Below, piece after piece: positions 1 to 61,277 of a DNA stretch of 64,000 nucleotides. The first letter of the stretch is position 1; every line of letters starts with the position of its first letter. The position numbers and the translations under genes were made by a program. Under the pieces are notes generated by a model, which searched no databases, was not told the origin of the DNA, and saw only the letters and a program-made list of their open reading frames with translations. The DNA is from Squalus acanthias (Eukaryota). Location: the NCBI GenBank assembly GCA_030390025.1, contig CM059452.1, forward strand, positions 7,564,001-7,628,000. Reading direction: 5' to 3'.

Positions 1-205
1 TGTCCAATTACTGCAGGATCTCTTCAAACTCTTTCCTTGCCTGTCTGTGTGTGTCATTATCTCTCTCTATATATATGTCTATTTAACTCGGTGTCTCTAT
101 CTGAGTCACGGTTTCTCTCTCCCTCTCTCTCTCTGTCTTTTCCTTTCATTCTATCTCTGTCGCTCTCTAACTAAGGTGAAATGTGAAGAAATTCCAGAAG
201 TCGTT

Positions 206-1722
206 GGCCAGAAATTTGACTCGGAGGCTTGCCGCGGGGGTAAGGATCTTGCGCGATATCGCACTCCGCGCCGGCCGTTGTGTTTTGGGCCCACACGAAC
301 TTCTGGTCCTGGGCCTCTCCCTGGTGCCGGCGCGCAGTGTGTGCGTGTCCCAGGGGCGCAGTTTGCTCGATGCGACCTCTGGGCTCACGTGGGCCATGGA
401 GAGCCAATGGCAGCACACCATCTTTCATTCATAGATTTGACAAGAGAACTGTCAAAACTATGAAAACAAATTGCCCCCAAAAGAACAGCTAAACCTCAAA
501 TAAATTGTAAAAAAAACCCATCACATTAATAAAATAACTATAGTTAAATAAATTAACCACTTTAAATAAAAATTTAAATTTTTGAAAATTTTTTAATTCT
601 TTTTAAAAGTTATAAAAATAAACTTACCTTTCTTTAAAGTCTCTAAAAAAGATAAACCTGTTGAAACAAATTTAAAATAATACTTAATTAACTACTTACC
701 TTGTTAAAATGGGGTCTTCCGCCTCCTTTCTTAATGGCCCAGAAATTCGGCCGAATACGGGAGAGTACGCACTGTGCACTCACCCATATTCGGTCCCGAA
801 GTGCCGGTTTCCTGCATGCACTGCGCATGCGCGGGAAACCGGCACTTCCGATATTGCGAAGGGGGCGGTTCCTAAGTGAACCGCGTGCGCACTACAGGCT
901 GTGCGCACGCAGCACACTTAGGCTTTTTTTCAGGTTTGAACGCGAGGGTAAGTGTAGAAGATTTTACACATGAAAAAAGGAGGCGTAAGACCTCCTTTTA
1001 ACAAGGTAAGTAGTTAATTAAGTATTATTTTAAAAAAATTTCAACAGGTTTATCTTTTTTAGAGACTTTAAAGAAAGGTAAGTTTATTTTTATAACTTTT
1101 AAAAAGAATTAAAAAAATTTCAAAAATTTTAATTTTTGTTTAAAGTGGTTAATTTATTTAACTATAGTTATGGGTTTTTTTGAAATTTAATTGAGGTGTA
1201 GCTGTTCTTTTGTGGGCAAGTTGTATTCATAGGTTTGACAGTTCTTCTGTCAAAACTAAGAATGAAAGATGGTGTGCTGCCATTGGCTCTAACTGGCCCA
1301 CGTGATCCCAGAGGTCGCATCCAACTAACTGTGCCTCTGGGACACGCACACACTGCGCACCGGCAACAGGGAGAGGCCCAGGACCAGAAGTTCGTGTGGG
1401 CCCGAACCATAAAGGCAGGCGCGGTAGGTAAGATCGCGCACGATCCTTACCCCCGCGGCAACCATCGAAGTCTAATTTCTGGGCCCATGTGTAAAATATT
1501 CCATACTTACCCTCGCGTTGAAACCTGAAAAAAAACCTAAGTGTGCTGCGTGCGCACAGCCTGTAGTGCGCACGCGGTTCACTAAGGAGCCGCCCCATTC
1601 GCCATACCGGAAGTGCCGGTTTCCCGCGCATGCGCAGTGCATGCAGGAAACCGGCACTTCGGGACCGAATACGCGAGAGTACACAGTTCGTACTCTCCCG
1701 TATTCAGCCGAATTTTTGGGCC
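206..1722. mobile_element. Nested non-autonomous DNA transposon (MITE, PIF/Harbinger-like): inner copy 736-1485 inserted in opposite orientation into an outer copy 206-1722
   Basis: Termini GGCC(C)AGAAATT...AATTT(C/T)TGGGCC at 206/1722 and 736/1485; 206-730 is an inverted copy of 975-1485 and 736-970 of 1486-1722; outer flanks GTT/GTT, inner flanks AAT/CAT. Confidence 0.75.
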
Positions 1723-3599
1723 GTTGTGTCCAATTAATAGTTGCAATCTTAAGAATATGAATTACATTACACACACACCAACATTAACAAAAATACACAG
1801 AATGTTTGATATCTTTGGAGGTTAATGACTTATATTCAGTTGTACTTTGCTTGAGATGCAAGCTCTTTAACAAGTGATCAGAGAGCGCACTCCTGTGTCA
1901 GGTACAAGCCTCACACAGAGAATTGGAAGCAAGCACATGACCACAGACACTTGCACATAGACAGACATGCACTGAAACACACACAGACACACATACCAGA
2001 ATAAACACAGACGTGCACACAATGATTGATATCTTGTGGATGTTATTGATATATATTCAGTTGTGAATTGTTTGAGATGAATGAGAAACAGACTTGGTGC
2101 AAACTATTCTAAAATTGTATTCATTCCGTCTCTCAACAATGTGCCAAAATATTTCCAAACCAATCAGACAATTTCTGAATATCATGTGACAAGCTGCACC
2201 CGCTCATCCCTGAGTCACGGGTTGTATATTTGTCCTTTCTCGCTTCTCTTCCTGGACACAATCAGCACAGCCCCATCCCCGCGGTGCGATCTACTTGCTG
2301 CTGTCTTTAACTGATGAGTGCAGGTCCCTGAACGGATAAAGACATTAATCTCATATTGTTTGCGCAGCAACTCGTCCACATTCTGTTTTCAGATGCAGTG
2401 GGATCTAAATTCACTAGACAGGTGCAATCTGTGCGGTGGGGGCAGTAAAGGGAAATAGTTAATGTTGTTCTGGTATCAGTGCCGGAGGCTCCGATTAAAG
2501 AGCTGCTCACTGACCATTCGATCTACACACTGCCGATATAAAGGGGAATATAGACGGCCAGCGGGTCCTGAGGGACTTGAACACAACGATACGGTAAATT
2601 GTACAAACGCCACGTCTTATATGAATGAAATGGGGAATGACTGACATGTTTGAGCAGAATGGAAGGATGGGAGCAGCGGATAGGCTGAGTGATACTAAGG
2701 AGAGCTGGTCATTAAAATATTTACAACATCTCATTAATAATACTCTAATAATTCACAATAACATTAAAAAATAAAACAACGCTTCCATTTGAAATTAATG
2801 CCTTTATTTCTGAATCCCTTTATTAAATAAAGGAACTGAACGGTGTTGTCCGTCTGTAACACGCCCTCACACTGAAACCAACAGTGAACACATCCGCCCA
2901 CTGCCCTCTGGTGGCGAGTACCTGTAACTACAAGTACAAATCCCGCCGTGTTGCAGTTCACCAGATCACTGAGAATGAAGGAGGCCATTCGGCTTGTCTT
3001 GTCTCATCCATCCAGAGAGATCCTAACTCCCGCCCCTCACTGCAACCTCAAACTTTTCCTTAAACGATTCCAGGGTATTTCCCTCGGCCACTCTATCCAG
3101 ACGTATATTCCACACATTAATCACTCTGTGTGTGTGAAGAATTTCCTGGTGCCAGCACTAAAATGAGCTTTTATACATTGACCCCGTGTCCCCAGCTTCT
3201 AATTCCACAGCTCGTTTAAATAATATTGCGGGTTCGGTTTTAATGCTGATACTCCTCTTGGGGTCATTGCAGTCGGGCACTGGGATACGTTGTTACTTAA
3301 AACAGCTCCTGTGACCATCCCCTTCATCATTCCGCTTCAGAGAAAGGGCTCATTGCGAGAGAAAGTGAGCACCAGGCGACTATTTCCTTCTTCTCACTCC
3401 CTCTTCATCAGCCCCGCCCACAGCTTCTGTTTGCTGCTCTCGCTCTGACCCGCCTTGCGTGCCCTGTGTTATTGGAGGGATTGCTGCCGCTGTTCCCTGT
3501 TTGGCATTGGTTCGATCAGCAGTGCAGTGGGCGGGGATCTGTATTTCTGCTCCGACAGAGGATTTCCCGGACTGCAGAGTTACAGACTCTGGGTGAATC

Positions 3600-4579: not shown

Positions 4580-5425
4580 GATGCTGCCTGAGTCTGTAAC
4601 TCTGCAGTCCGGGAAATCGTCTGTCGGAGCAGAAATACAGATCCGCTCCCCACTGCACTGCTGATCCAAGCAATGCCAAACAGGGAACAGCGACAGCAAT
4701 CTCTTCAATAACACCGGGCAGGCAAGGCGGGTCAGAGCGAGAGCAGCAAACGGAAGCTGTGGGCGGGGCTGCCGCGGGCGGTGTCACCACAAGATTTGTC
4801 TCTATAATTTCCAGTTGTTGACGGTAAGAAACATGTGACCACGGCGCCCTCTGCCGATGACTCTGAGAATTTTACACTGTCGGGAAAATCGGCAGAGTGA
4901 AGTGTGAGTTTATCGATGGGGCAGTTTCCAGAGACCTGTTATTGGGAGACAATGTGTATTGTTTCAGACAATTCAGCTTTGTAAATAGGGCGAAGGGAAA
5001 TGTGAATTAATTTAAAGGAAAATACATTTTAATTTATTTCTGAATCTGTTTCTTGCTTTCTCTTACCTTTTAGCTTTGTGTTTCTCACTCGTTATTTCTC
5101 ACTTTCTTTCATTTCACTTTCCCGCCTTTACTAATTTGCTGTCCTCTACACTCTCATTATTACACCGCTCTTTCTCTTTCGCTCTCTGATTCTTTCTTTG
5201 GTGTTTTCTCTTTCTTTCCCTCTGTTATGTTTCCAACTCTCTTCATTTCTCACTTACTTTAGCTCTCTCTCTTCAATATATCATCATTGTTCTGTGCTCA
5301 TTCCCTCTGCCCTCCGATTATTATAACCGGGCCCCTCCCAATCCCGTTACTCCAAAAACAGCAGAGCGGCGCTCCCCCTCGGGGCAGGTTTCTGTGCGGA
5401 CTCTCCGCCTGTTTGTTACACTGTG

Positions 5426-10602: not shown

Positions 10603-11062
10603 TAAAGAAAGAAAGACTTGCATTTATATAGCGCCTTTCACGACCACCGGACGTCCCAAAGCGCTTTACAGCCAATGAAGTACTTTTTGAAGTGTAGTCA
10701 CTGTTGTAATGTAGGAAACGCGGCAGCCAATTTGCGCACAGCAAGCTCCCACAAACAGCAACATAATAATGACCACATAATCTGTTTTACTAATGTTGCT
10801 TGAGGGATAAATATTGACCAATGTAACTCCTCTGCTCTTTTTCGAAATATTGGGATTCATTACGTCCTCCTGAGTGGTCAGACAGGGCCTCGGTTTAACA
10901 TCTCATCCGAAAGACTACACCTCCGACAGTGCAGCACTCCCTCAGTACTGACATCGGAAGGGTGCGCCTAGATTTTGTGCTCAAGTCTCTGGAGTGTGAC
11001 TTGAACCCACAATGTTCTGACTCAGAGGCGAGAGTGCTGCCAACTGAGCCAAGGATGACCCC
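10603..11062 (-). mobile_element. tRNA-derived SINE (Deu-domain/SacSINE-like)
   Basis: Minus-strand head with A/B-box-like tggctcagttgg...gggttcaagtc; tail aaagacttgcatttatatagcgcc shared with copies at 25000, 58830 and 61280. Confidence 0.7.
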
Positions 11063-12599
11063 TTAGTACTTGTAGATTAGACCTTGTTCTGTTCATTATA
11101 ATTTATGTGTACCTTTATTAATAATAAATGTATAATATCTATATACAAATGCAGCTGGATGAGTGAAATGCCTTTATTGAGGTAACCAGGCTGATGACTG
11201 ACAGACAGATGGACAGCGGCCTCTCTGGGCCTCGCTCACTTGTTCTACATCAGCAGGGGGGTGGGGCAGCTTGTATCAGGGTTTCCCCAGTGCAGACACA
11301 GAGAAAGGAATCACTGGTCACCGGGAAAAGCGGGAGGGAAATCATACTGACTGGAGCCCGTGCACGCACAAAGATCACAGGCATCCAGCACCAGTTGAAC
11401 TGAAAGGAAATGAAAGTCAGTTGTTGTGAATGCGGATTGCGGGTTGTTGTTGTTTATTGTGCGGATCAGAAAGGGTCAAATCTCCCAGCGGAAAATGTCA
11501 GTTTCCAAGCTCCACTTCCTCTTATTAATGTTTTCGTCCCTGTAAGTGATGATGTACACGGCTCGACATTCGCCATCAGAATCCCCGCAACACACCTCCC
11601 CATAAAAGGACACTGCCTCATACACACACTTATTGTCTGTTTTCACCCAATATCCGATCAATGTAAAAGGTCTCATCGTATCCGCCAGAGGGCGCCGTGG
11701 TCCCATGATTCTCGCTGCTCCCTCGGGACTCGAACCATTGTTCTTCCTGATTTGTGTAAACGCATCACAATTCCAAAGCCTACTTGTATCTGAGTTTTTG
11801 TTCGTGGGATTCAGCAAAGCTTTCCCCCCATCTCTTTTACTTTGTTAGCTATTCATCGTCACAATCTCTACCACGCTTATGAATTATTTCCTTATACTGC
11901 ATATCTTAAAGCGACTGCGAGTGACTTCGTTGGTAGCTGCCGTTTAAAAAAAAACCCTTATATATTAAAATCTGGAATGAAAGACACACTCAGAGAGATG
12001 GGACTGTAACCCGGGTGAGGAGTTTCTCCCGTGTCAATAACCACCATTTCCCTTCCCATGTGATTAATTTCAGGATAGTGGAATGACGCCTCCTGTTAGT
12101 TTCAGGCAGACATTAATCTAACGGGTTCAGCAGATATTTGGGGAAGGGGCTCATATTCCCCTCCAAGCAATTACCAACAAAGTCGGATGATGGCGGTAAG
12201 ATATTATCTCGAAGTGACAATATATTGGTTTGAAAGTAGATTAAGATGTTGTTTATTTCAATCACTGCCACTAATCAGACTGAAGTGGTTGATGGGGAGT
12301 CGGGTTTGATTAACCTGCTGGGGACCCATAGTGGGAAGATTTCCTCTGGTCTCTCTCTGTAAATCTCATCCACAAGCTGTTTTAACGAAATCGCACGTTT
12401 ATTATTTTAGAATGCATTCACTATTTCGTTAGAAATAGGGAGCAGAGGAAATCTACCACACACAGCGGATAGTTCAGTGTAACCACGAATGATACAGGAC
12501 AAAGAAGTTAATACCGTTTGGCTCTTCAACCTTGTTATCCCCTCCCCCTTTTCCCAGCTTTACCCTGGCCTTAAATCTATTTGATTTCCAGCTCTTCCC

Positions 12600-12636
12600 A
12601 GTTCTGATGAAAGGTCATCGACCTGAAACGTCAACT
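12600..12636 (+). ncRNA. Minimal type I hammerhead ribozyme motif (copy 1)
   Basis: AGTT-CTGATGA-A-AGGTC atc GACCT-GAAA-CG-TC-AACT: catalytic core, 5-bp stem II, 4-bp stem I. Confidence 0.7.
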
Positions 12637-12901
12637 CTCTTTCTCTCTCCACGGATGCTGCCTGGCCTGCTGAGTTTTTCCAGCGTTTTCTGTTGTTATT
12701 TCGGATTTCCAGCATCCGCAGTATTTTGCTATCGTATTAGTGTTTGGTTCACTGCCATCTCTCTTCTTGGAATGCCTACCTTGAAGAAGTTCTGCTCTTC
12801 TCTTCGACGGGATTTCCGTTTGGCTCTTCAACCTTGTTATCCCCTCCCCCTTTTCCCAGCTTTACCCTGGCCTTAAATCTATTTGATTTCCAGCTCTTCC
12901 C

Positions 12902-12938
12902 AGTTCTGATGAAAGGTCATCGACCTGAAACGTCAACT
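12902..12938 (+). ncRNA. Minimal type I hammerhead ribozyme motif (copy 2)
   Basis: Identical motif 302 nt downstream. Confidence 0.7.
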
Positions 12939-13203
12939 CTCTTTCTCTCTCCACGGATGCTGCCTGGCCTGCTGAGTTTTTCCAGCGTTTTCTGTTGTTA
13001 TTTCGGATTTCCAGCATCCGCAGTATTTTGCTATCGTATTAGTGTTTGGTTCACTGCCATCTCTCTTCTTGGAATGCCTACCTTGAAGAAGTTCTGCTCT
13101 TCTCTTCGACGGGATTTCCGTTTGGCTCTTCAACCTTGTTATCCCCTCCCCCTTTTCCCAGCTTTACCCTGGCCTTAAATCTATTTGATTTCCAGCTCTT
13201 CCC

Positions 13204-13240
13204 AGTTCTGATGAAAGGTCATCGACCTGAAACGTCAACT
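13204..13240 (+). ncRNA. Minimal type I hammerhead ribozyme motif (copy 3)
   Basis: Identical motif 604 nt downstream. Confidence 0.7.
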
Positions 13241-13719
13241 CTCTTTCTCTCTCCACGGATGCTGCCTGGCCTGCTGAGTTTTTCCAGCGTTTTCTGTTGT
13301 TATTTCGGATTTCCAGCATCCGCAGTATTTTGCTATCGTCAAAGAAGTTAATGCTCTCGGTGAGCCGTCACACACCGACATAAAATAAACAAACACTCAG
13401 TGTGACCAATTCGGGCCCATTAAATAAATCCCCGAACCTCAGCAAAGCTGAAGCTTTCTTCACGCCATAGGCAGCGCTTACTGAGTGATTGGCTGCACCT
13501 TCAGATACTTTATGCTGTGGTTCAAAGGGCTTCAACTGAGCCATGAGCCTCACTTGAATCTCATTTAAATATATGGCGGGTGTATAGGAGATGTTGTCAT
13601 TGGAGGGGAACAATGGGAGCAGGAAGTGGCGTTGGACCAATAAGAGCCCTTGACGAGGTATATTCCGGTCCGGGATGGGGCTCTTAAAGAGACCGACAGG
13701 TTTGGGCTCGGCAGCGGCC

Positions 13720-14401
13720 ATTCGGATATTCAGCGTGTGGGTTGTGTTTGGGGTGTTTATTGTCGGTAAGGATTAATCCAATTGTGTCGTGTTCAAACTA
13801 AAGTGTTAATATTATTTCAGCTTTTAATATTCGGTTTTATCTTGTTAATGAACACATGTTACAGATCAGAGTGATGGAGATTCTGTTACTCAGTCCCAGA
13901 CTTTAGTCAGCAGGAGAGAAGGTGAAGCGGTAACTACGAGGTGTACAAATGTGAGAAGTCGCACAACACCAGGTTATACTCCAACAGTTTTATTTGAAAT
14001 CACAAGCTTTCGGAGCTGCTGCTCTTTCGTCAGGTGATTTCAACTAAAACTGTTGGACTATAATCTGGTGTTGTGCGACTTCTCACTTTTGTCCACCCCA
14101 GTCCAACACCGGCATCTCCGCATATAAGATGTACCTACAGTACCACAGAAAACTATTATAATTTATATTGGTACCAGCACCAAGCAGAGAAGGAGCCCCA
14201 GTTTGTAATCAGGAGACGGTCTTGGGACACACAAGAACGGAGAGGAAAAGGTTTCGGAATCCGTTTTTCTGCTCAGCTCCAGACCTCGACTAAATTCAAG
14301 TGTTTAACCATTTTCGGGCTGCAGCTGACTGACTCTGCCGTGTATTACTGCACCCTGGGACTCACAGTGATGGAAAGCAGTCTCACTCCCGTACAAAAAT
14401 T
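13720..14401 (+). pseudogene. TCR V pseudogene (leader start ATG>ATT; V exon from 13865 interrupted by a repeat; RSS 14363-14401)
   Basis: Leader (I)RIFSVWVVFGVFIV+GTAAG; DSVTQ...EGEAVT [insert] CTYST...YWYQ...DSAVYYCTLG; CACAGTG-23-ACAAAAATT. Confidence 0.87.
13946..14122. mobile_element. Short Penelope-like element with inverted arms and a minus-strand hammerhead motif (14036-14001)
   Basis: Arms gtgagaagtcgcacaacaccag.../...ctggtgttgtgcgacttctcac; minus strand reads CAC-CTGACGA-A-AGAGC agca GCTCC-GAAA-GC-TT-GTG. Confidence 0.7.
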
Positions 14402-14719
14402 GCCATTGGACGGTACGGCGGAGCTCCTGTCTGTTGGGGTTGTGTGGAATCGCGGGCAGATGCAGCCACAATGAGCAGCGCGCTGTCAGGCGCTCAAACA
14501 CTCACCGAGAGGAAACCAAATTAACCTCGGATCAAACTGTCACCCAACTGTTTCCAGGAGCGACCGAGAAAACAAACTGCAGAATCCAATCGGCCCAAAT
14601 GATCGATCAGAGAATGAACCGACCGGTTAAACTGTCCTTTCTGCTTCTCATCAGCTGTTTTCCCTTTAAAATCATGGATCGATGTTCAGATTTGTTCCGA
14701 GAAAGTGGTCGCTTACACT

Positions 14720-14880
14720 CAAACGTCACTCAAATATCGCCGAAACAAGTCACCCAAACATGGCCGAAGGCACGTCACTCAAACATGGCCGACGGCACAT
14801 CACTTCAACATGTCCGACAGCACGTCACACAAACATGGCCGACGTGCGTCACACAAACTGCAGACTGACGTCACGCAAAC
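14720..14880. repeat. Degenerate ~25-bp tandem repeat (CACGTCAC..AAACATGGCCGA)
   Basis: Recurring cacgtcac/aaacatggccga motifs. Confidence 0.7.
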
Positions 14881-15052
14881 ACAAAGCGGGAGAGTCTAAC
14901 GCTGACTGAAGCTCAATGTTACATTGCATATTCTTCAAGATTACAGAATAGAAATGGGAGAAATGATTAATTGTACTTCAGTCATCTTTAATGTTTTGAC
15001 GCCGATGATCCCTTCTGGCTGTACACGTTAATAGGTACCGTCGACAGCAAGT

Positions 15053-17900: not shown

Positions 17901-18985
17901 CTGCAACACACGGTTAAAACAAAGCGGAAATCATCGGTTAAAGGTTCAAACTGAACCAACTGACGGTGAAAATGCGCAGCGAGTTTTACATAAAATTAAA
18001 TAGAATTTACTTCACAGAAAAAGGTAATTTGTCCCAACCAGTCTATGCCGTGTTTATGCTCCACACGAGCCTCCACCCAGCCTTCTTCATCTCCCCCTAT
18101 CAACATATCCTTCTATTCCTTTCTCCCTCGTGTACTTATCTAACTTCCCCTTCAATTAATCTATGCTGTTCGCCTCAACTATTGCTTGTGGCAGCGGATT
18201 CTGCATTCTAACCTTGGTAAAGACGTTTCTCCAGAATTCACCATTGGATTTTTTGTGATTATGTAGATGAAGATGTTCAGCGTGTTTCTCTCACTGTCAG
18301 TAATCAGGCTGAGGTGGTTGACGGGGCTCGGGTTTGATTAACCTTCTGCTGGGGACAAACAAGGGGAAGATTTCCTCTGGTCTTCCAAACACAGCGGGAA
18401 ATCTCGACCGATCGCTAGTTTAGTAGAATCGTCATTCATTGTTTTAGAACGCGTTCACTATGTCACTAGAAGTAGCGACCAGGGGAAATCTGCCGCATAG
18501 AGCGGACACCTCGGTGTAGACACGAATATCACAGGAGAATGAGATTATTGCTCTCGGTGAGCCGTCACACACCGTCAGAAATTAAACCAACACGCAGAAA
18601 AGGGAAAGTTTAGAGCCCTTTGAATATAATCCCAAATCTAAGCAAAGCTGCACACTTCTGTGCTGGTGTAAGGGGTGTGAAAATGAAACAAACACAGCGG
18701 CAGTGAAGAGGGAAACTTGAAATTGAACAGACATTACACGGTACATTGGCCTATTAAACCTGCGCGGGTTTCTTCCTGTTCATCCCTCATTATAGAGTGA
18801 ATGAAATCTAAAACCATACTCCTTTATTCAGAGCTGTTGGGAGCTGCCCTGTCGGAATATTCTGTCCTGACAGTAACTGTCCTAATCAGGTCATCACAGG
18901 CGGGTATTCCGGCCACACACTGTTCTATTTACACGCGGTGTGCTGCAGTTTTTGTACAGGACGGGCACAGAGCTGTGCAGCTGTG

Positions 18986-41745: not shown

Positions 41746-41829
41746 ACCTGAGATAAGGCCTATTATAATATAAACAAAGTAATGGGCTGTAACAAATAAG
41801 GGAGGTCCCAGTGCAATAATTACTGATAC

Positions 41830-42145
41830 AGCGACTAGTGTAATATAAACTGAGGCAGGGTCTAGTGTAATATAAACAGAGACAGCGTCTAGTGTAATAT
41901 AAACAGAGGCAGGGTCTAGTGCAGTAATAACTGAGACGGGGCCTAGTGTAATATAAACAGAGACAGGGTCTGGTGCAGTAATAACTGAGACGGGGCCTAG
42001 TGTAATATAAACAGAGACAGGGTCTAGTGCAGCAATAACTGAGACGGGGCCTAGTGTAATATAAACAGAGACAGGGTCTAGTGTAATATAAACAGAGACC
42101 GGGTCTAATGTAATATAAACAGAGACAGGGTCTAATGTAATAATA
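41830..42145. repeat. 27-bp minisatellite block 1
   Basis: (tagtgtaatataaacagagacagggtc)n. Confidence 0.95.
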
Positions 42146-43177
42146 GTCAGATAATTACAAATATATCAACCTCATGTCAGGTACAGGTACAGACAGTTTC
42201 ATTTTTACCATCACTTGCACCAATCATCACACACTCGAGGTGTATGTCAGGAGATTCTGTGTGATGCTGAGGTGATCACTGGACAATAAACCACAGAGAC
42301 TGGTGGGTAGCTGCTCATTATCCTCGGTGTGATTTCATTCCCTTTCCAACTGAATACTGCGGACAGACAGGCTCACCATGGTAACGGACTGGTCAGTGTG
42401 ACATCACTTTCTAAACAAGAGCACTCAAGAGAATCGGTTATTAATAAATGTTAAATGTTAAAGATATTAAGCAATTTGCAATTACATTTTGAATAAAAGA
42501 AAATGTTCAAAAATAATTGTGAAGATAATCATTTATCATTGCAGAATGCACTTGCAAACATCAAAAATGATGTATTTTTACACACACACTCACACTGACA
42601 CTCACACATATAGCAAACACTTTGTAAGCGCTCTTTTCAGTTGTTCCTCTTAACCAGATTGTAAATGATATGGTGTACATTAGGACCCTGCATCCGCCCA
42701 TGCGGAGGTGCTGTAAGGTCATGGTTCCAGCTGCTGTCACCCAATCAGTGGGTGACGTGAAAGCTAAATAGAAAATAATGAAGGAAAAAAATCCTTAACA
42801 TTAAAAAAATTGTGAGCAATTGCACATTCCAACACAAGTATCAATTAGTAAAATTTAACACAACGGAGTTTGCTACTAAGTAGTGCAAAGTGCAGTGAAC
42901 TATTGCTCACCTTTAGCCCTGTCCCTCGATCCCAGTTCATCTCTGTGAGATTGTTACAAGATTCACCCCATCCTTTCAACACAAATATGACCGACAAAAT
43001 ACCAGATCAATTAAAAATCGCACGCTGCTCCTGATACTGATGAACAACAGCAAAGGTATGCTTCCAACCATAAATGTTTGCATCCTCCCGCCCATTCACA
43101 CATATAGCTTCATTTACATTAATACCTGTCTATCCATCCAGCAGAGATATGGTCCAGAACAATGATAGCTGCGAAAG

Positions 43178-44856
43178 GGCCTAGTGTAATATAAACAGAG
43201 ACAGGGTCTAGTGTAATATAAACAGAGACAGGGTCTAGTGTAATATAAACAGAGACAGGGTCCAGTGTAATATCAACAGAGACAGAGTCTAGTGTAATAT
43301 AAACAGAGACAGGGTCCAGTGTAATATAAACAGAGACAGGGCCAAGTGTACTATAAACAGAGACAGAGTCTAGTGTAATATAAACAGAGACAGGGTCTAG
43401 TGTTATATAAACAGAGACAGGGTCTACTGTAATTTAAACAGAGACAGAGTTAATTTAATATAAACAGAGACAGGGTCTAGTGGAATATAAACAGAGACAG
43501 GGTCTAGTGTAATATAAACAGAGACAGGGCCTAGTGTACTATAAACAGAGACAGAGTCTAGTGTAATATAAACGGAGACAGGGTCTAGTGTAATATAAAC
43601 AGAGACAGTGTCTAAGGTAATATAAACAGAGACAGCGTCGAGTGTAATATAAACAGAGACAGGGTCTAGTGTAATATAAACAGAGACAGGGTCCAGTGCA
43701 GTAATAACTGATGCAGAGCCTAGTTTAATATAGAGAGAGAGACAAGGTCTAGTGTTATATAAACAGAGACAGGGTCTAGTGTAATACAAACAGAGACAGC
43801 GTCGAGTGTAATATAAACAGAAACAGGGTCTACTGCAGTAATAACTGAGACAGGGCCTAGTGTAATATAAACAGAGACAGGGTCTACTGTAATATAAACA
43901 GAGACAGGGTCTAGTGTAATATAAACAGAGTCAGGGTCTAGTGTAATATAAACAGAGACAGGGTCTAGTGTAACATCAACAGAGACAGGATCTAAAGTAA
44001 TATAAACAGAAACAGGGTCTAGTGTAATATTAACAGAGACAGGGTCTAGTGTAATATAAACAGAGACAGGGTCTAGTGTAATATAAACAGAGGCAGGAAC
44101 TAGTGTAATATACAGAGAGAAATGGTCTAGTGTAATAGAAACAGAGACAGGGTCTCGTGTAACATAAACATAGACAGGATCTAGTGTAATATAAACAGTG
44201 ACAAGGTCCAGTGCAGTAATAACTGAAACAGTGTCTAGTGTAATATAAACAGAGACAGGGTATAGTTTAATATAAACAGAGACAGGGTCTAGTGCAATAC
44301 AAACAGAGACAGGATCTAGTGTAATATAAACAGAGACAGGGACTAGTGTAATATAAACAGTGACATGGTCTAGTGTAATATAAAGAGAGACAGGGTCCAG
44401 TGTAATATAAACAGAGACAGGGTCTAGTGTAATATAAACAGAGACAGAGTCTAGTGTAATATAAACAGAGGCAGGATCTAGTGTAATATAAACAGAGACA
44501 GGGTCTAGTGCAGTAATAACTGAGACAGGGCCTCGTGTAATATAAACAGAAACAGGGCCTAGTGCAGTAATAGCTGAGACAGGGTCTATTGTAATATTAG
44601 CAGTGATATGGTCTAGTGTAATATAAACAGAGACAGGGTCTAGAGCAGTAATAACTGAGACAGGGCCTCGTGCAATATAAACAGAGACAGGGTCTAGTGT
44701 AATATAAACAGAGGCAGGCTCTAGTGCAGTAATAACTGAGACAGGGTCTAGTGTAAAATAAACACAGACAGGTTCTCATGCAGTAATAACAGAGACAGGG
44801 TCTAGTGTAATATAAATAGGGACAGGTTCTGCTGCTCTAATAACAGAGGCAGGGCC
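43178..44856. repeat. 27-bp minisatellite block 2 (~60 units)
   Basis: Same unit, with the variant tgcagtaataactgagac. Confidence 0.95.
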
Positions 44857-51352: not shown

Positions 51353-51479
51353 GTGAGTAGTTTTTATTGTCCAAGTCTCTCACTGTTACTGTCTCAGTGT
51401 TAGTCTCTCTCTGGAATGTTACAGAGTCAGGAATCATTTCACCAGGATTAATCCTCGGGGTTTTTTATTGTTTTTACAG

Positions 51480-51842
51480 GTGTCCAGTCGGATGTCGTGT
51501 TGACTCAGCCAGAGGCAGAGACCGGGAGTCCCGGAGGCTCCCTGAGACTGACCTGTAAAACCAGCGGGGTCAATCTTGGCAGCTATCGCATGCATTGGGT
51601 CCGACAGGTTCCCGGACATGGGCTGGAGTGGCTGGTTTACTACCTCAGTTCATCAACCAATAACTACGCCCCAGGGATCCAGAGTCGATTTACTGCGTCC
51701 AAAGACACTTCAAAGAGCATCTTCGCTTTGGACATGAAGAACCTGAGGACCGAAGACACCGCCATCTATTACTGTGCAGGAGAGACAACAGTGTATACTA
51801 TGGAGTACTGGGCACAAGGCACTATGCTGACGGTGACTGCAG
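51480..51842 (+). CDS. IGHV: Germline-joined in-frame VH(D)JH exon of a shark IgM-type heavy chain
   Basis: [30 protein letters not shown]...WVRQ.PG.GLEWL...[29 protein letters not shown] + GTAAG; leader intron retained; no RSS between V and J. Confidence 0.95.
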
Positions 51843-54800
51843 GTAAGAAACATTCACTCTTTCAGTAACTGTTGTATTTGTGTCTTTATTTTATATTTCT
51901 GTTTATTTCAGTAATTCATTCATTCACTGAAACTTGGGTTATGTGGATTCCGCAGTAAGATTTTTTGCTTTGTTTCATTTAATTCTGCTGCAAAGGTATA
52001 ATAGAATTAAACAGTTTCTCCAGAAATAAAATGTTGTTGAGGGATTGAGCCCCTGATTGATGTGATTTGGTGTTTATCTGCTGATGAGTCTGTGAGCCTG
52101 GGTTACTTTAAATACCCAACGGTTGTTGAACTGTTTGGCGTTTCTACAATGTTTAATCTCGGTGACATCTAATGGTTGCAGGTTTTCTGATCAAATGTAA
52201 ACATTATGTGACTAAATGTGTTTGAAATAAGATTGTAGGCAGAAAATAGAAAGCTCTAGCGGTCAAAAATAATCTTAAGTTATATTAATGTATTTCTATT
52301 TGTAATTGTCATCTAATAATCTAATGTTCACCAATGGTCATATTCAATACGTGAAATGTTACTGTAATTAATAACTCCATAATTAAAAAATGTGTTGCCT
52401 GAATCAGATTTAAATTAATATAAATTAAATTACGTAGTAATATCACCCAATATTACAACAATATGCTATATCAATATTAATTTATTAAATATGAACCGTC
52501 TACTTACAATTCTGCTTTCATTATTTTACATTTATGTTTATTTCAATAATTAATTCGTTCAGTGATAGATGGGATCGCGAGATTCTGTATTGAGATTTTT
52601 TTGCAATGTTACATTTGATTCTGCTGAAAGGGTTTATAGAATTAAGCTGCATCTCCACAAAACGTTCTGTTACGGGATTCAGCCCCTCAGTGATGTGATT
52701 TGCTGTTTATCTGCTGAGGAGAGTGTGTGCCTGGGTTACTTTGAATAAGTAAAGTTTGTGAAACTGTTTGGAGTTTCTGCAATGTTTAATCTCCGTGACA
52801 TGGAACTGCTGCAGGTTTTCAGATCTGTTTAAAACTGTTTGAAAGATGAATGTCGGCAGACAACAAGTAGGTTTTATAAATCAAAAATCATTTCAAAATA
52901 ATTTAATGCATCTTTCTATTTAAGTGAGAATTCCAGATTCAACGATTAATCTATGATTTACGGTGCTCACCTTTAATAGGTGAATTGTTACTGTAATTCC
53001 GAATTATATAATTAACAATTTGCAGGTTGAAGGAGAGTTAAATTAATATAACTCAAACCACTATAATGCGGTAATATCGCCCAATTTCACTCAATATGCT
53101 GTAGTAATAATATTAATGCATTAAATATTATTCGCCTTCCACAATTCTGCTGTGCACTGGTCACAATTAACCTGAGCGGAAAATTTTAGAGGCTGGAGAC
53201 AATTTCTGATTTATGTCTGAAATTATTTTAATAACAGCAGACTGATTCCACCGCAGTGTTCAGTTTAATGAGGGTTTGAAATTAATTGTTATCTCCCTGT
53301 TTCACACAGATGAATGACAGATTGTATTTAATTATGCATTAAATGCGAGTTGTAAATAGCAGTTCGTAAATGTAATAAATCTGCCGGGTTATTAAATTCT
53401 TACTGTGCAGCGGAAACCATTTTATTCCTTCAATATTATTTGTTGTTTGATAGCGAGACAATTATCACTAAACTAATCTTAAACAGTTTGTAAGATCTCA
53501 GGCTGAGCGGTCGCTGGCAGTCAAATAATTGTTCATATAGTTCCATTTAAAATCAAGGAAGGTGCCGACTGCGTAAGGCTGGAGACAAAAATTGACATTC
53601 AAGTAGATTAATTTAATTACAAAAGGTTAATATTAGTTTTGAATTTAATAACAACATCCTGTCTCCTATAACTGTGCTGTATACGGGATAGAATTTTGAC
53701 AGTGAACAGATTACATCTGAGAGTTATGTTTAATTCTCATTAATGTTGAATTGATCGACAAAATCTCTCCTCCATTTGCTCATTAAATTTCAGTGTCGCA
53801 GATGGTCTGATTGATCTGTTCTCCGCCAGTTTTACATTAATCATTCTGGAACTGATTTTCAATAAATTGCAGAATATATTTAAGAATTAAATTACGGGCA
53901 TTGTGTGAATTACTGGAGTAAAATATAAAAATATTGTCTGTGTTATTAAATAGCGGAGGCTCTGTTACTGACGGCAAACTGGCCGGTTGTCTTTTAATTC
54001 ATAAATAGTTTTTTATAGCTAAGATTGAGGATAATGTTTAAACTCGAGAGCCCTGCTTTAGTAAACATACGGTGTTACAGCTCATCGGTAGTTAGTGAGA
54101 TGTGACCACGGCCAGACTTTGAACTATTTAAAATAGTCCACTCCTAAATGCATCATGTGAAATCCACTCTGAGAAAAGATGGAGTTTTGTTTTGTATCAG
54201 AGAGTTCAGAAACATACAGAGTTTGCAAGTGATTAGATAGAGAGCGGGAATGTATTAGAAGTTCGTGAGCATTTTAACTTATTCAAATGTGATTTGAATT
54301 AAGTAAAAATAATATATTTGTCTGAATGTCTTTATCTATTAACATGATTCTTCTTATTTTAATATTGATAAATGCCATGTTAATTTAATTGAAGCCATAA
54401 TAGTTCACAAGTTACCAGGCAGAAACAGGATTAAAATTAATTTTACCTAATTTTATAACAATCCAGTATAACATCAGCTAACATCAATATTAAATTAGAG
54501 TATAATATCAGTGCGAATTTATTAGACATAAATGACCTCCCACAATTGCGTTGTACACTGGACAGGATTACGGTTACTGCAAAATCTCAAGGGTTGGAGA
54601 GAATTTTAAATTATGTCTAAAATTAATTTAGAAACAATACAAGTCTTACTCAGCTGTGCTGAGCTCGAGAAGGTGTCGCCGCAGATTTTAATGAATTAAC
54701 TTCGTCTTTTGCCTCGATCATTTTCCAGGTTATATTTAATGATGAAATTATATTAACCCAGTGGGTAATCGGTTTTCAGTGTAAATGTCTCCTGATTTGT

Positions 54801-57675: not shown

Positions 57676-59473
57676 TACTTCACACTGTTGACCGAGCTTT
57701 CAGTATCTGACCAATAAGCCGCAGGTATTTGAGTTATCCGCACAAACCAGAAGCCAGAGTTGCCCACATCAGCAGTCAGCACATTAGTTATTGTTTGTCC
57801 ATCTTTGCATAGAAACCACTGATACCCAATCAAGTTACAATGTTTAAGGATTGCCAATATTAGATATTTGGAAAAGAAATCTCTCCCGATGTTTAGATTA
57901 TGTTCGGTACAAACAGCAACAAGAAGTGACTGTAATGACCCAGGAAGCAGCGCCTGTTCTCACTGGTGGGAGGTTGGAAAGTAATTTAGAAAATGAAATG
58001 GAGCATTTAAAGAGCATCGTTGCATATAACCGGCTTTGGGAATCGTATATAATTCGGATAATTTAATTGAGTGAGTGGGAGGAGGAAAGTCAGGAGACAT
58101 CCATTCAGTAGAATGGGACAGAGGACAAGTCACACTGCATCGGTCTTCCTCCAATTCTGAGAAGGAAAGAGAGAGACTAGAATCAATCCCGATTCATCTA
58201 AATCTGGAATCTTAGAAACCAGGCTGTGCAAAAGTTCCCAATTCAAATCTGTGCGCTGAATTATTCCGTTCACATTTTAAAGGAGACTTCACCCATTTAT
58301 TGTAAACGTCCTTTATTGTCATGGGAACAAAGAAGATTTAGAGGAGGTCTGATAGAGGGGATTTTCGAATTATGAAGGGTTTTATGAAGGGATTCGGGAA
58401 ACATATTTCCCCGGGTCGGTGAGTTGGTGAGTAAATGGCACTGATTGAAAATCAGCAGCAACAGAATAAAGGGAGAGGTTTTATTCCACTTTTCTACACA
58501 GGGGGCTGTTAATCATAGGATGTCCTATCAGAAAGAGGGCTGCATGTAAAATCCACAATAGCTCGATAAAATTGAACATTTGAGAAGAAGATTGGAAATT
58601 GGAAGGTACACGGGATTGGTGGAGAGACCTTTCAGAGGTGTGATCGGCCGAATAGCCTCCTTCTGTGCTGTAACGTTGTATTATTTTATAATTCTGGGTC
58701 ATGCTTTATAAACATGCTGGGATTTGTTTTAAAGGTAACACAACTAGTAGATCTAGCTGTAGGAGTTGTGTGCTTAGGAGAACTAACCCCACCGCTATTC
58801 AAACAAGTCTATCCCCTGAAATCAACAACTTGCATTTAATTAGCGCCTTTAACGTAGTAAAACGTCCCAAGACGATTCACAGGAGCGTCAGCATATAGAA
58901 TCTGACACCGAGCCACATAAGGAGATATCATTTTTATTTCTTTAGTATGGTTGGTAGTTATACTGACAGTTGACCAAAAGTTTGGTGAAAGAGGTAAGTT
59001 TTAAGGCAGCATCTTACAATGGAGAGAACACGACACTTTGATATCATGGAATGGCCTGATTCTGTGCTGATAATAAGAGGCTGACAGCAAAAGGATGTAG
59101 GGAGGAGCTCAGTGGACAGAATGTGAAAGAATCTAATGTGAAAGTGGTTGGGCAATGAGGGGAGTGTTCCACAACAGGGGATCAAGAGCTGGAGGAAGTC
59201 CACGAAACAATATTCCGGCATTCACTCGGTATAAAGGGGCCTCATGGACAGAATGCTCCTTTCAGACTCCTGACATCTCTTATGTACAAGACTGGAGTCA
59301 CATGAAGGCGTTTCACGTCGGGTCTCACAATCACAGAAACTCAAATGCTGATCCAGGTTTTGATCGGCAAATGATGGAATTAGTTCATTCTGTAGTCACA
59401 TTTCGAGTTGTTTGGTTATTTTATAAGCACGGATTACAGAGTCTAACTTGTTCAATGGGCCATTCTTTCCCAG

Positions 59474-59773
59474 CGACACAGTCTCCTCCCACCCTCTACG
59501 CCCTGCTCTCCTCCTGTGAACAACCCAACACCGGCGGCCCCGTCACGTACGGCTGTTTGGCGATGGACTACTTCCCGGAAATCACCAGCCTTTCCTGGAG
59601 TAAAGATAAAGAGCCGATCACCACTGGATTGAAGACCTACCCGTCAGTGCTCAACAAGAAGGGAACCTACACCCTGAGCAGCCAGTTAACCATCACCGAG
59701 TCAGAGGTGGGGAGCAGCGCCATCTACTGCCAGGTTCGACAAAGTGGGTCGGACTGGAGCGTCCAAATGCCAG
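59474..59773 (+). CDS. IGHM: IgM heavy chain constant exon C-mu1
   Basis: ATQSPPTLY...SCEQPNT...YGCLAMDY.P...SW...[37 protein letters not shown]; phase-1 AG/GT boundaries; shark C-mu1-like. Confidence 0.93.
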
Positions 59774-59809
59774 GTTAGTGTTGTGGGATACAGGGGGGAA
59801 ACTGTGAAA

Positions 59810-60590
59810 AGCAGAGAAGTTATGTTCAACTTCTATACAACTTTGGTTAGACCAGACTTAGAGTACTGTGTACAGGTCTGGTCTCCATATCACACTTAGA
59901 GTACCGTGCACAGGTCTGGTCTCCATATCACACTGAGAGTACTGTGTACAGTTCTGGTCTCCATATCACACTTAGAGTACTGTGCACAGGTCTGGTCTCC
60001 ATATCACACTGAGAGCACTGTGCACATAGTCTGATCTCCATATCACACTTAGTGTACTGTCCATAGTTCTGTTTTCTATATTAAAAGAATGATACAGAGG
60101 CACTGGGGAAGTACAAAAAAAGATTTACAAGGACGATACCAGAACTGAATAATTGTAAATGTTAAGAATGATTGAACGGGCTTGGGATCTTTTCTCTGGA
60201 AAAGAGAAGGCTGAGGGGTGACCGAATAGAGGTCTGTAAAAGTATGAAGGGGGTTGAAAGGTTAGACGTAGAGAAAATATTTCTGCTTGAGGAGGAGCCC
60301 GATACCAGGGTCCATAAATATAAGATAATCACTAATAAATCCAATAGGGAATTCAGGAGAAACTTATTTACCCAGAGAGTGGGTAGAATGTGGAACTCGC
60401 TACCACATGGAGTAGTTGAGGTGAACAGCATTGATGCGTTTCAGGGGAATCTAGATAAGTACAGGAGGGAGAAACGAATAGAAGGTTATGTTAATGGGGA
60501 GATGAAGTAGGGAGAGAGGAGGCTCATGTGGAGCATAAACACCGACCTGTTGGGCCGAGTGGCCTGTTTCTGTGTTGTACATTCTATGTA
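59810..60590 (+). mobile_element. CR1 LINE fragment containing an internal 38-bp tandem amplification (59858-60060)
   Basis: (cttagagtactgtgtacaggtctggtctccatatcaca) ~5 copies derived from the LEYCVQ.WSPY motif; ORF 60172-60510 FSLEKRRLRGD...WNSLP. Confidence 0.85.
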
Positions 60591-60660
60591 AAAAAACGCT
60601 TTACAGTTTTAATTGTTTGGATTGCAACAAATAATCCCAATAAATTGTATTTTCTCGCAG

Positions 60661-60972
60661 ATCGTGTGGTACATCATCCAACTGTGATCCTCACCCTGAG
60701 TTCCAGTGAAGAAATCATCAGCAGCAGGTCTGTAACCGCCGTGTGTTCAATCATCGATTTCCGTCCAAAGTCACTGACCGTGAATTGGCTGAAGAATGGA
60801 CAGCTCATGGATTCGGGCTTCGTCACCTCTCCCGTCTTTAAAGTGAACAGGAACTTCTCGGCGACCAGTCGGCTGACATTCACCGCCGGGGAATGGTGCG
60901 CCGGCTCGGTCTATACCTGCCAGGTCACTCATGAAGGAATCCCCCAAAGCGCAAACATCTCCAGATCTCAGG
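60661..60972 (+). CDS. IGHM: IgM heavy chain constant exon C-mu2
   Basis: [18 protein letters not shown]...VCSIIDFRP...NWLKNG...SGFVTSP...FSATSRLT...W...YTCQVTH; phase-1 AG/GT. Confidence 0.92.
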
Positions 60973-61277
60973 GTAAGAGGCACAACCCCGAGAAGTCCCA
61001 GATCATTCTGAGCGCTGATCTCAGTCAGGACTTTTATTGGAATTAGTAAAAAGCACAGAACTATTTCTAATTTCCAATCATACAGTTTGTGTTTCCTTCC
61101 GATGTCAGTGCTGACTCAGGGTTCCTCACGGTTCAGGATTCCATCACTTCGCCAAAGGTTTCCCTCAGCTGTGATGTCAGACAGTGAGTGAGGTTTCCTT
61201 AGTCTCGGGTTTACCCTGAGAAAGCTCTATTTCTAATTTACAATCATGCTGTTTGTGTTTTCTTCCAATATAAAATA

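What the first reader, a model, noticed from the sequence alone, without database searches (positions are those of the whole stretch)
12500..13352. Young 302-bp tandem array of minimal hammerhead ribozymes (retrozyme/circRNA-like) with TSD and an empty paralogous site
Seen: 2.7 essentially identical units, each with CTGATGA-A-[AGGTC/GACCT stem]-GAAA-CG-TC flanked by AGTT/AACT (stem I), and a perfect 13-bp TSD. The uninterrupted paralogous site is at ~18530-18560. Established: minimal type I hammerheads with a palindromic stem III occur in Penelope-like elements and in tandem non-LTR retrozymes that yield small circular RNAs. Inference: a non-integer multimer inside one TSD suggests reverse transcription going more than twice around a 302-nt circular RNA, i.e. 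a recently active shark retrozyme-like family.
Basis: partly seen in the sequence, partly recalled or inferred. Interest (0 to 1): 0.7.

Follow-up and report, generated by a model that had tools for sequence, protein, structure and literature searches.

The report
Penelope end-piece copied round three times
This is a short end-piece of an abundant jumping gene, repeated 2.7 times in one insertion with a self-cutting RNA motif in each copy; it was likely written by the gene's own copying enzyme looping back over one short RNA, and no circular-RNA family is shown.

Summary
Observation confirmed: 2.73 identical 302-nt units (12514-13339), three minimal hammerhead cores, a 13-bp TSD and an uninterrupted paralogous site. 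The unit is nt -72..+232 around the start codon of a 3,198-nt Penelope-like element with an intact RT/GIY-YIG ORF. It ends at +129, one of that family's two 3' end sites. It is not shown to be a self-spreading retrozyme family. Five scans gave 201 such joints at about 129 places. The exact joint occurs at only 5 loci, on 4 different parent haplotypes. Joints carry short microhomology (mean 1.9 vs 0.8 nt expected). In 5 of 36 multi-joint arrays the joint shifts between units; one unit gains 7 nt of true ORF sequence, which a closed circle lacking them could not supply. Best reading: the parent RT repeatedly jumped back on one short linear RNA, with the ribozyme a passenger (0.55); a true circle remains possible (0.25). 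RNA was not examined. Penelope-derived vertebrate retrozymes are in print, and the scan noted similar shark arrays elsewhere; the birth mechanism is the new part.

The parts
12500..12512 (+). Left target-site duplication, 13 bp
   Evidence: Exact copy at 13340-13352; TSDs of 10-16 nt were found at 40 of 59 sampled family copies (hand count)
12513..12513 (+). One extra A between the TSD and the element, matching neither
12514..12536 (+). 5'-truncated start: parent ORF nt +210..+232
   Evidence: 100% to parent L031
12535..12536 (+). Joint 1: parent +232 joined to parent -72 through 2-nt TT microhomology; identical joints at 12837-12838 and 13139-13140
12535..12838 (+). Full unit 1: parent -72..-1 (3' UTR / pLTR) then +1..+232 (ORF start); private C>T at 12758
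12600..12636 (+). Minimal type I hammerhead 1; the parent's ATG (12607) lies inside the CUGAUGA box; predicted cut after 12632
   Evidence: Sequence; identical to the parent over 48 nt; constrained fold -6.5 vs unconstrained -9.6 kcal/mol
12607..12876 (+). 89-codon frame: about 77 N-terminal codons of the parent ORF run through the joint into a stop; no RT or nuclease domain
12837..13140 (+). Full unit 2, identical to unit 1, private T at 13060; hammerhead 2 at 12902-12938
13139..13339 (+). Partial unit 3: parent -72..+129, hammerhead 3 at 13204-13240; the 3' end at +129 is the family's distal 3' end site (inferred RT start)
   Evidence: 23 of 59 sampled copies end at +125..+140 and 36 of 59 at +85..+104
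13340..13352 (+). Right target-site duplication
18537..18549 (+). Uninterrupted equivalent of the target site in a diverged paralogous V-gene flank

Best explanation
This is one young insertion made of the -72..+232 end-piece of an abundant, intact Penelope-like retrotransposon, likely written by that element's own reverse transcriptase looping back over a single short linear RNA, with the hammerhead likely carried along as a passenger. Shown: parent element, unit make-up, identical joints, family 3' end, TSD. Inferred steps: (1) the parent's RT/GIY-YIG protein bound a short parent RNA that still held the ORF-start region; (2) it nicked the target and began copying internally at +129; (3) it reached about -72, the likely 5' end of that RNA, and re-landed at about +232 by 2-nt pairing; (4) it repeated the same jump at least once more, then stopped at +210; (5) integration left a 13-bp TSD. 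The third joint may come from a further lap or from later local duplication.
For: Parent: 971-aa ORF with RVT_1 and GIY-YIG matches (E 2.4e-5 and 6.2e-4, both below Pfam's curated cut-offs), in head-to-tail copies 3,198 nt apart; 2,856 exact 40-nt cores in the genome. Same layout as Anolis PAc (ATG in the ribozyme, cut 26 nt downstream, two internal RT starts; PMC11167929). 201 joint copies at about 129 places (places hand-counted); 95 loci parsed gave 91 joint types, some inflated by parse failures. Microhomology mean 1.92 nt in the 71 of 91 types that parsed cleanly, vs 0.83 in the null; 0 of 2000 draws reached it. The same joint recurs on different parent haplotypes: 232|-72 on 4; 281|-106, 271|-118, 268|-104, 248|-105 and 271|-95 on 2 each. 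Joint shifts inside arrays with the take-off fixed: L219/L221 270,277,270,270|-120 (7 extra nt of true ORF in one unit) and L074 247,248,255,255|-77; L254 differs by 2 nt at 170|-54/-53. No 5' end at +26..+28 among the 56 direct 5' ends listed, and no sharp pile-up at the cut site genome-wide.
Against: In 27 of 36 multi-joint arrays every joint string is the same, up to 10 in a row (L033), which a closed circle explains more simply; 4 more differ only by a SNP or a 10-nt repeat contraction. The window's own three joints are identical, so the discriminating evidence comes from other loci. In L253 and L198 the odd joint moves on both sides, as a slip on a circle would. Inverted arms often carry the same joint as the direct arm (L048, L056, L171). 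Repeated jumps need the RT to displace its own cDNA and re-land beside a fresh hybrid, which is untested for this RT. The private T at +152 in both full units fits local duplication as well as a variant template. 5' ends at +27 are somewhat more frequent than at the +47 control (26 of 30 loci of 40 matches vs 5 of 30 of 100); 7 of the 26 are inversions joined through stem I, and direct flank joins are about 13 vs 10 (hand count). No RNA data were examined.
Confidence: 0.55

Rival explanations
1. True circle: a mini-tandem already in the genome is transcribed, cut by dimeric hammerheads, ligated to a 302-nt circle and copied round by the parent RT from +129.
For: Most arrays have identical joints (27 of 36), including both arms of inverted insertions. 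Retrozyme circles are documented in other animals and proposed as RT templates (PMC7229834 discussion; PMC4209133 discussion). A cut and re-ligated ribozyme site leaves no trace in DNA, so the lack of ends at +27 does not exclude it. Some joints recur on the same haplotype (233|-105 in L143 and L154).
Against: It predicts families (same joint and same haplotype at many loci); the window's joint is at 5 loci on 4 haplotypes and its private SNP at 1. It cannot supply the 7 extra ORF nucleotides in one unit of L219 without a template switch. It does not explain how the first joint arose. The motif has an A-U closing pair and a competing fold; only 1 of 9 Xenopus dimers cleaved (bioRxiv 2026.07.22.740005), and PAc used uncleaved RNA.
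Confidence: 0.25
2. A short parent RNA fragment is closed end to end at the joint by a host ligase and then copied round; the ribozyme plays no part.
For: Explains locus-specific joints that are identical within an array, and independent origins on different haplotypes.
Against: End ligation needs no pairing, yet microhomology is enriched (1.92 vs 0.83 nt); the 7-nt gain in L219 is unexplained.
Confidence: 0.08
3. DNA-level origin: a microhomology deletion in a tandem parent or in a prior insertion, then local tandem expansion by unequal crossing-over, or copying of a read-through transcript of such an array.
For: Microhomology fits repair deletions (described for rotifer Penelope copies, PMC3846280 passages). 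Local amplification is the route suggested in bioRxiv 2026.07.22.740005. The private SNP shared by both full units and a 35-nt unit repeated at least 43 times in L114 show that local expansion is possible.
Against: A one-joint insertion running +210 to +129 has no direct repeat to expand and lacks +130..+209; 7 of 75 parsed loci have two or more joints with the 5' end downstream of the 3' end. No donor carrying the private SNP is in the assembly. Deletions in a 3.2-kb element need not cluster at 230-410-nt units, yet 4 of 59 sampled loci had such joints and none had an intermediate unit.
Confidence: 0.1
4. Assembly artefact: one unit expanded by the assembler.
For: Units are 100% identical and the Logan contigs could not span the array.
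Against: The array is only 826 nt with an intact TSD; dozens of other loci show arrays of other periods, some with unit-to-unit differences.
Confidence: 0.02

Closest known systems
Animal non-LTR retrozymes (Cervera and de la Pena 2020, PMC7229834; Li, Clavereau and Pollet 2026, bioRxiv 10.64898/2026.07.22.740005)
   Same: Non-coding tandem with a type I hammerhead in every unit, GC 46%, long TSD, unit near the 363-bp mean reported for one chondrichthyan, derived from a PLE end.
   Different: No family: nearly every locus has its own joint and unit length. The unit is not just the pLTR but pLTR plus 232 nt of ORF fused by microhomology. Circle and cleavage are not shown. Those papers invoke circles or local amplification; joint-level origin is not treated in the parts I read.
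EN+ Penelope-like elements with a linker Cys motif (Neptune/Nematis type; PMC8557442)
   Same: Parent has RT, C-terminal GIY-YIG, CX4CxxC linker, CCHH, partial tandems, inverted 5' arms, a roughly 35-nt optional tail and variable TSDs.
   Different: The window array has lost 2,896 of 3,198 nt per unit and is non-autonomous. Neptune versus Nematis was not resolved by a tree.
PAc, Poseidon element of Anolis carolinensis (PMC11167929)
   Same: Start codon inside the hammerhead, cut site 26 nt downstream, two RT start sites inside the ORF start that define the tail.
   Different: Sites here are about +95 and +129 against +111..118 and a second site in PAc; the parent here has the linker Cys motif that Poseidon lacks; mini-multimers are not described in the parts read.
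Template jumping by R2 reverse transcriptase (PMC11371274 passages)
   Same: RT continues from the end of one template onto more RNA and can leave head-to-tail tandem products.
   Different: There the jump is to additional RNA molecules; here the inferred jump is repeatedly back onto the same short RNA, downstream of an internal start.

Membership tests
PLE minimal type I hammerhead | CUGANGA and GAAA boxes, UH cut triplet, helices I and II | tested here: met
   CUGAUGA, GAAA, GUC, 4-bp stem I, 5-bp stem II
PLE minimal type I hammerhead | [quoted passage not shown] | tested here: met
   A12611; ACGU is self-complementary; features as listed in PMC4209133
PLE minimal type I hammerhead | Highly conserved G10.1-C11.1 pair | tested here: not met
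   The closing pair is A12612-U12624, as in the parent. That this lowers activity is recalled, not tested.
PLE minimal type I hammerhead | Match to an Rfam hammerhead model | tested here: not met
   No hammerhead family at E<=10 in 11000-15000
PLE minimal type I hammerhead | Self-cleavage as a dimer | not testable with these tools
   Needs in vitro transcription
Animal non-LTR retrozyme | Tandem repeat with a complete type I hammerhead in at least two consecutive units (working definition of Li et al.) | tested here: met
   Three cores, fold below -5 kcal/mol by my own folding, not their pipeline
Animal non-LTR retrozyme | No coding capacity for RT, no LTR/PBS/PPT, GC under 50%, long TSD | tested here: met
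   Only an 89-codon stub; GC 0.464; 13-bp TSD; PBS and PPT were not searched for
Animal non-LTR retrozyme | Homology to the pLTR of a co-resident PLE | tested here: met
   99.6-100% to L031
Animal non-LTR retrozyme | Spreads as its own family (same unit at many loci from a common mini-ancestor) | tested here: not met
   Joint at 5 loci on 4 haplotypes; private SNP at 1 locus
Animal non-LTR retrozyme | Expressed as monomeric linear and circular RNA | not tested
EN+ Penelope-like element (parent L031) | Single ORF with RT and C-terminal GIY-YIG, CCHH motif | tested here: met
   971 aa; DKG 375, YIDD 616, LVY-CxxC-YIG 874-889, H902, H918; Pfam scores are below the curated cut-offs; 1,821 relatives at E<=1e-30 among 7,989 scored
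Neptune/Nematis-type PLE (parent) | CX2-5CxxC linker before the nuclease | tested here: met
   CTHRRCNTC at 837-845; criterion from PMC8557442 passages
Neptune/Nematis-type PLE (parent) | Placement by RT phylogeny | not tested
   No named reference set was at hand
EN+ Penelope-like element (insertions) | Partial tandems, inverted 5' arms, optional 30-40-bp tail, variable TSD | tested here: met
   59 of 60 sampled loci parsed: 3' ends in two clusters about 35 nt apart, many inverted arms, TSD 10-16 nt in 40

The most novel reading that the evidence does not exclude
Retrozyme-like arrays are born in a single insertion without any circle: the telomerase-related Penelope RT starts inside a short linear RNA, runs to its 5' end and jumps back by 1-4-nt pairing again and again, a pseudo-rolling circle. 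About 130 young loci in this one genome record the event at single-base resolution, and about 7% of this family's insertions are such newborn arrays.
Probability: 0.4. Interest if true: 0.65.

Novelty: new variant of a known kind. Interest (0 to 1): 0.42.

Why it matters
The element type is known. What is open is how hammerhead tandems first arise and why Penelope elements form tandems; Schostak et al. 2008 called this unexplained (PMC2377424 passages), and the circle model is a proposal. This family has an intact ORF, near-identical copies and about 130 mini-joint loci, so circle versus repeated jump can be tested directly with one protein and one 300-nt RNA. If jumping is right, a non-integer multimer inside one TSD is not evidence of a circular RNA, which matters for how such arrays are read in genome scans.

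Tried and rejected
Rfam scan of 11000-15000: no hammerhead model; the MIR8562 and MIR397 hits are far below gathering scores and were set aside. Folding gave no excess stability. Logan contigs of 4 DNA runs were too short to show the empty allele or the unit number. RNA runs were not examined, so expression and circles stay open. A splice origin of the joint was rejected by eye: no AG acceptor at -72 and joints vary widely. Poseidon was my first label for the parent and was dropped on the linker motif. A pile-up of 5' ends at the ribozyme cut was looked for with one test and one control position, 30 loci each; the result is weak and not a clear peak. A master mini-element for the 302-nt joint was looked for and not found. 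Rows dropped: L136 did not parse; L217 duplicates L221; L004/L036 lack an exact anchor; 20 of 91 joint types with negative overlap (SNP clusters, untemplated bases or parse failure) were left out of the microhomology mean; about 34 of about 129 joint places were not parsed. Scripts (part B; last lines) had errors and were redone. Literature searches listed no paper that describes repeated same-RNA jumps as the origin of PLE mini-arrays; subscription papers are not covered, and the preprint's supplements, which list its chondrichthyan families, were not seen.

Full report
Observation. The array is as described. Tandem Repeats Finder gives 12514-13339, period 302, 2.7 copies, 100% matches. A 13-bp duplication flanks it at 12500-12512 and 13340-13352, with one extra A at 12513. 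Each unit has a minimal type I hammerhead with a predicted cut after 12632, 12934 and 13236. The joined flanks align to an uninterrupted, diverged paralogue around 18537-18549. The window looks like a shark T-cell receptor alpha/delta V cluster from its open frames (the label is my reading of the translations). The ribozyme is weak on paper: no Rfam model matches, the catalytic fold is 3 kcal/mol above a competing fold, and the stem II closing pair is A-U where G-C is the conserved state (PMC4209133).

What it comes from. A search of the genome with the unit (40 of 1,230 candidates scored) returned many 99-100% matches to positions 22-302, three of them about 3,198 nt apart. That locus (L031/L032) holds head-to-tail copies with a 971-aa ORF carrying RT and C-terminal GIY-YIG matches, a CX4CxxC linker and a CCHH motif. 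By the criteria in PMC8557442 (passages) this is a Neptune/Nematis-type Penelope-like element; no tree was made. The start codon lies inside the ribozyme box. Counting from it, the unit is -72..+232, joined through TT, and the array runs +210, joint, full unit, joint, full unit, joint, to +129. The 40-nt core has 2,856 exact copies.

The 3' end is the family's. I fetched the first 60 loci with an exact core on contig C1; 59 parsed. Their 3' ends fall at +85..+104 (36) or +125..+140 (23), and 40 have TSDs of 10-16 nt. This matches the Anolis element PAc, where the ORF starts in the ribozyme, the cut is 26 nt downstream, RT starts at two internal sites, the first 172 nt of ORF are needed, and uncleaved RNA is the main substrate (PMC11167929, main text read). 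So the array was most likely inserted by the parent's protein. Four of the 59 loci had a mini-joint like the window's; none had a unit between about 400 nt and full length.

A population of mini-arrays, not one family. Five anchored scans found 45, 51, 34, 23 and 48 joint copies, about 129 places by hand count; exact anchors make this a lower bound. I parsed 75 loci and 20 more. In cleanly parsed joints the ORF side runs from about +168 to +325 and the upstream side from -35 to -162; the -35 limit is set by my anchor. The window's exact joint has 9 copies at 5 loci, and these sit on 4 parent haplotypes. Five other joints also recur on two haplotypes each. The C>T at +152 is in both full units of the window and nowhere else in the assembly. 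Joints therefore arise again and again from parent RNA or DNA rather than descending from a master mini-element.

How the joints form. Overlap at the joint averages 1.92 nt in 71 cleanly parsed types of 91, against 0.83 nt for random pairings of the same regions; none of 2,000 draws reached it. That points to pairing (RT jump or repair), not end ligation. Of 36 arrays with two or more joints, 27 have identical joint strings, 4 differ by a SNP or a 10-nt repeat contraction, and 5 show a real shift. In L219 one inner unit has 7 extra nucleotides of true ORF while the upstream side stays at -120; a closed circle lacking them cannot supply them. L074 shows 247, 248, 255, 255 against a fixed -77. 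Outside the joints, 38 unit pairs differed at 11 alignment columns in 7,547 nt, which I read as 5 SNPs and 2 single-base indels. Against this, L253 and L198 shift on both sides, and long runs of identical joints are simpler under a circle.

How many laps. The array starts at +210 and ends at +129. With a single joint it would have had no direct repeat and no +130..+209, so at least two identical joints were made at insertion; 7 of 75 parsed loci share this property. The third joint may be another lap or a later duplication; the shared private SNP fits either.

Role of the ribozyme. The joint is 98 nt upstream of the cut site, and neither end of the array is at the cut. Copies that begin at +27 exist but are few: 40 pattern matches, 26 of 30 checked being true breaks, 7 of them inversions through stem I; the control at +47 gave 100 matches with 5 of 30 true breaks. 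This is no clear peak. A cut and re-ligated circle would leave no mark, so the circle is not excluded. RNA was not examined; runs guessed to be RNA were only listed.

Comparison with print. Hammerheads in PLE pLTRs and a circle model for tandems: PMC4209133 (parts 1-2 of 4 read). Retrozyme circles in animals: PMC7229834 (passages and discussion). Vertebrate retrozymes as PLE derivatives, with one chondrichthyan averaging 363 bp and 1 of 9 Xenopus dimers cleaving: bioRxiv 10.64898/2026.07.22.740005 (parts 1-3 of 5 read; supplements not seen). Non-autonomous multicopy head-to-tail PLE derivatives in Chlamydomonas: PMC8557442 (passages). R2 template jumping: PMC11371274 (passages). Tandem formation called unexplained: PMC2377424 (passages). 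Searches listed no paper on repeated same-RNA jumps in PLEs. Earlier scan notes report similar arrays in other shark-like genomes and one stitched double stub in this genome; they are leads only.

Verdict. Real feature, known kind of element, no circular-RNA family shown. It meets the working definition of a retrozyme array but fails the test of spreading as a family. The best-supported mechanism is repeated jumping of the parent RT on one short linear RNA (0.55), with a ribozyme-made circle second (0.25). Interest 0.42: ordinary as an object, useful as a clean test case for how such arrays are born.

Noticed in passing
L114 (G000:C1:60167800-60172600), upstream end of a family copy: A 35-nt piece of the parent ORF is repeated at least 43.7 times, 100% identical, directly at the 5' end of a truncated copy; the array runs off the fetched stretch. 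It may be the same jump-back on a very short scale, or local expansion.
   Followed up: partly
window 13939-14120: A fold-back insertion (arms about 13939-14003 and 14034-14098) interrupts a V exon; it gave the spurious MIR8562 hit. It looks like an inverted end-piece of another Penelope-like family (recalled, not tested).
   Followed up: no
L223, L224, L226, L228, L229, L241, L245: Seven of 30 loci share the same inversion joint, made through the 4-nt complementarity of hammerhead stem I.
   Followed up: partly
L086, L099, L105, L110, L111, L116, L132, L138: Eight of 59 sampled copies have their direct arm end at -21..-43, just upstream of the ribozyme, a possible stall or RNA 5' end.
   Followed up: no
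L034 positions 4953-5196: The 3'-most unit has a different parent haplotype (two SNPs) from the three upstream units but the same joint, suggesting gene conversion or a template switch.
   Followed up: no
G000:C7:36971385-37189975 (L163-L166): The same mini-joint occurs four times, 47-108 kb apart; the four collapsed to one by shared flanks, so likely a segmental duplication.
   Followed up: no
window 41810-42145 and 43176-44830: 27-bp minisatellite arrays (11.7 and 61.3 copies).
   Followed up: no
window 208-1725: Nested inverted repeats (arms 208-518/1172-1482, 534-736/969-1171, 733-972/1486-1725).
   Followed up: no
window 51452-51868 and 59137-61046: An immunoglobulin-heavy-like V frame already joined to a J-like stretch, and constant-domain-like exons downstream of the TCR-like V cluster (labels are my reading).
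   Followed up: no
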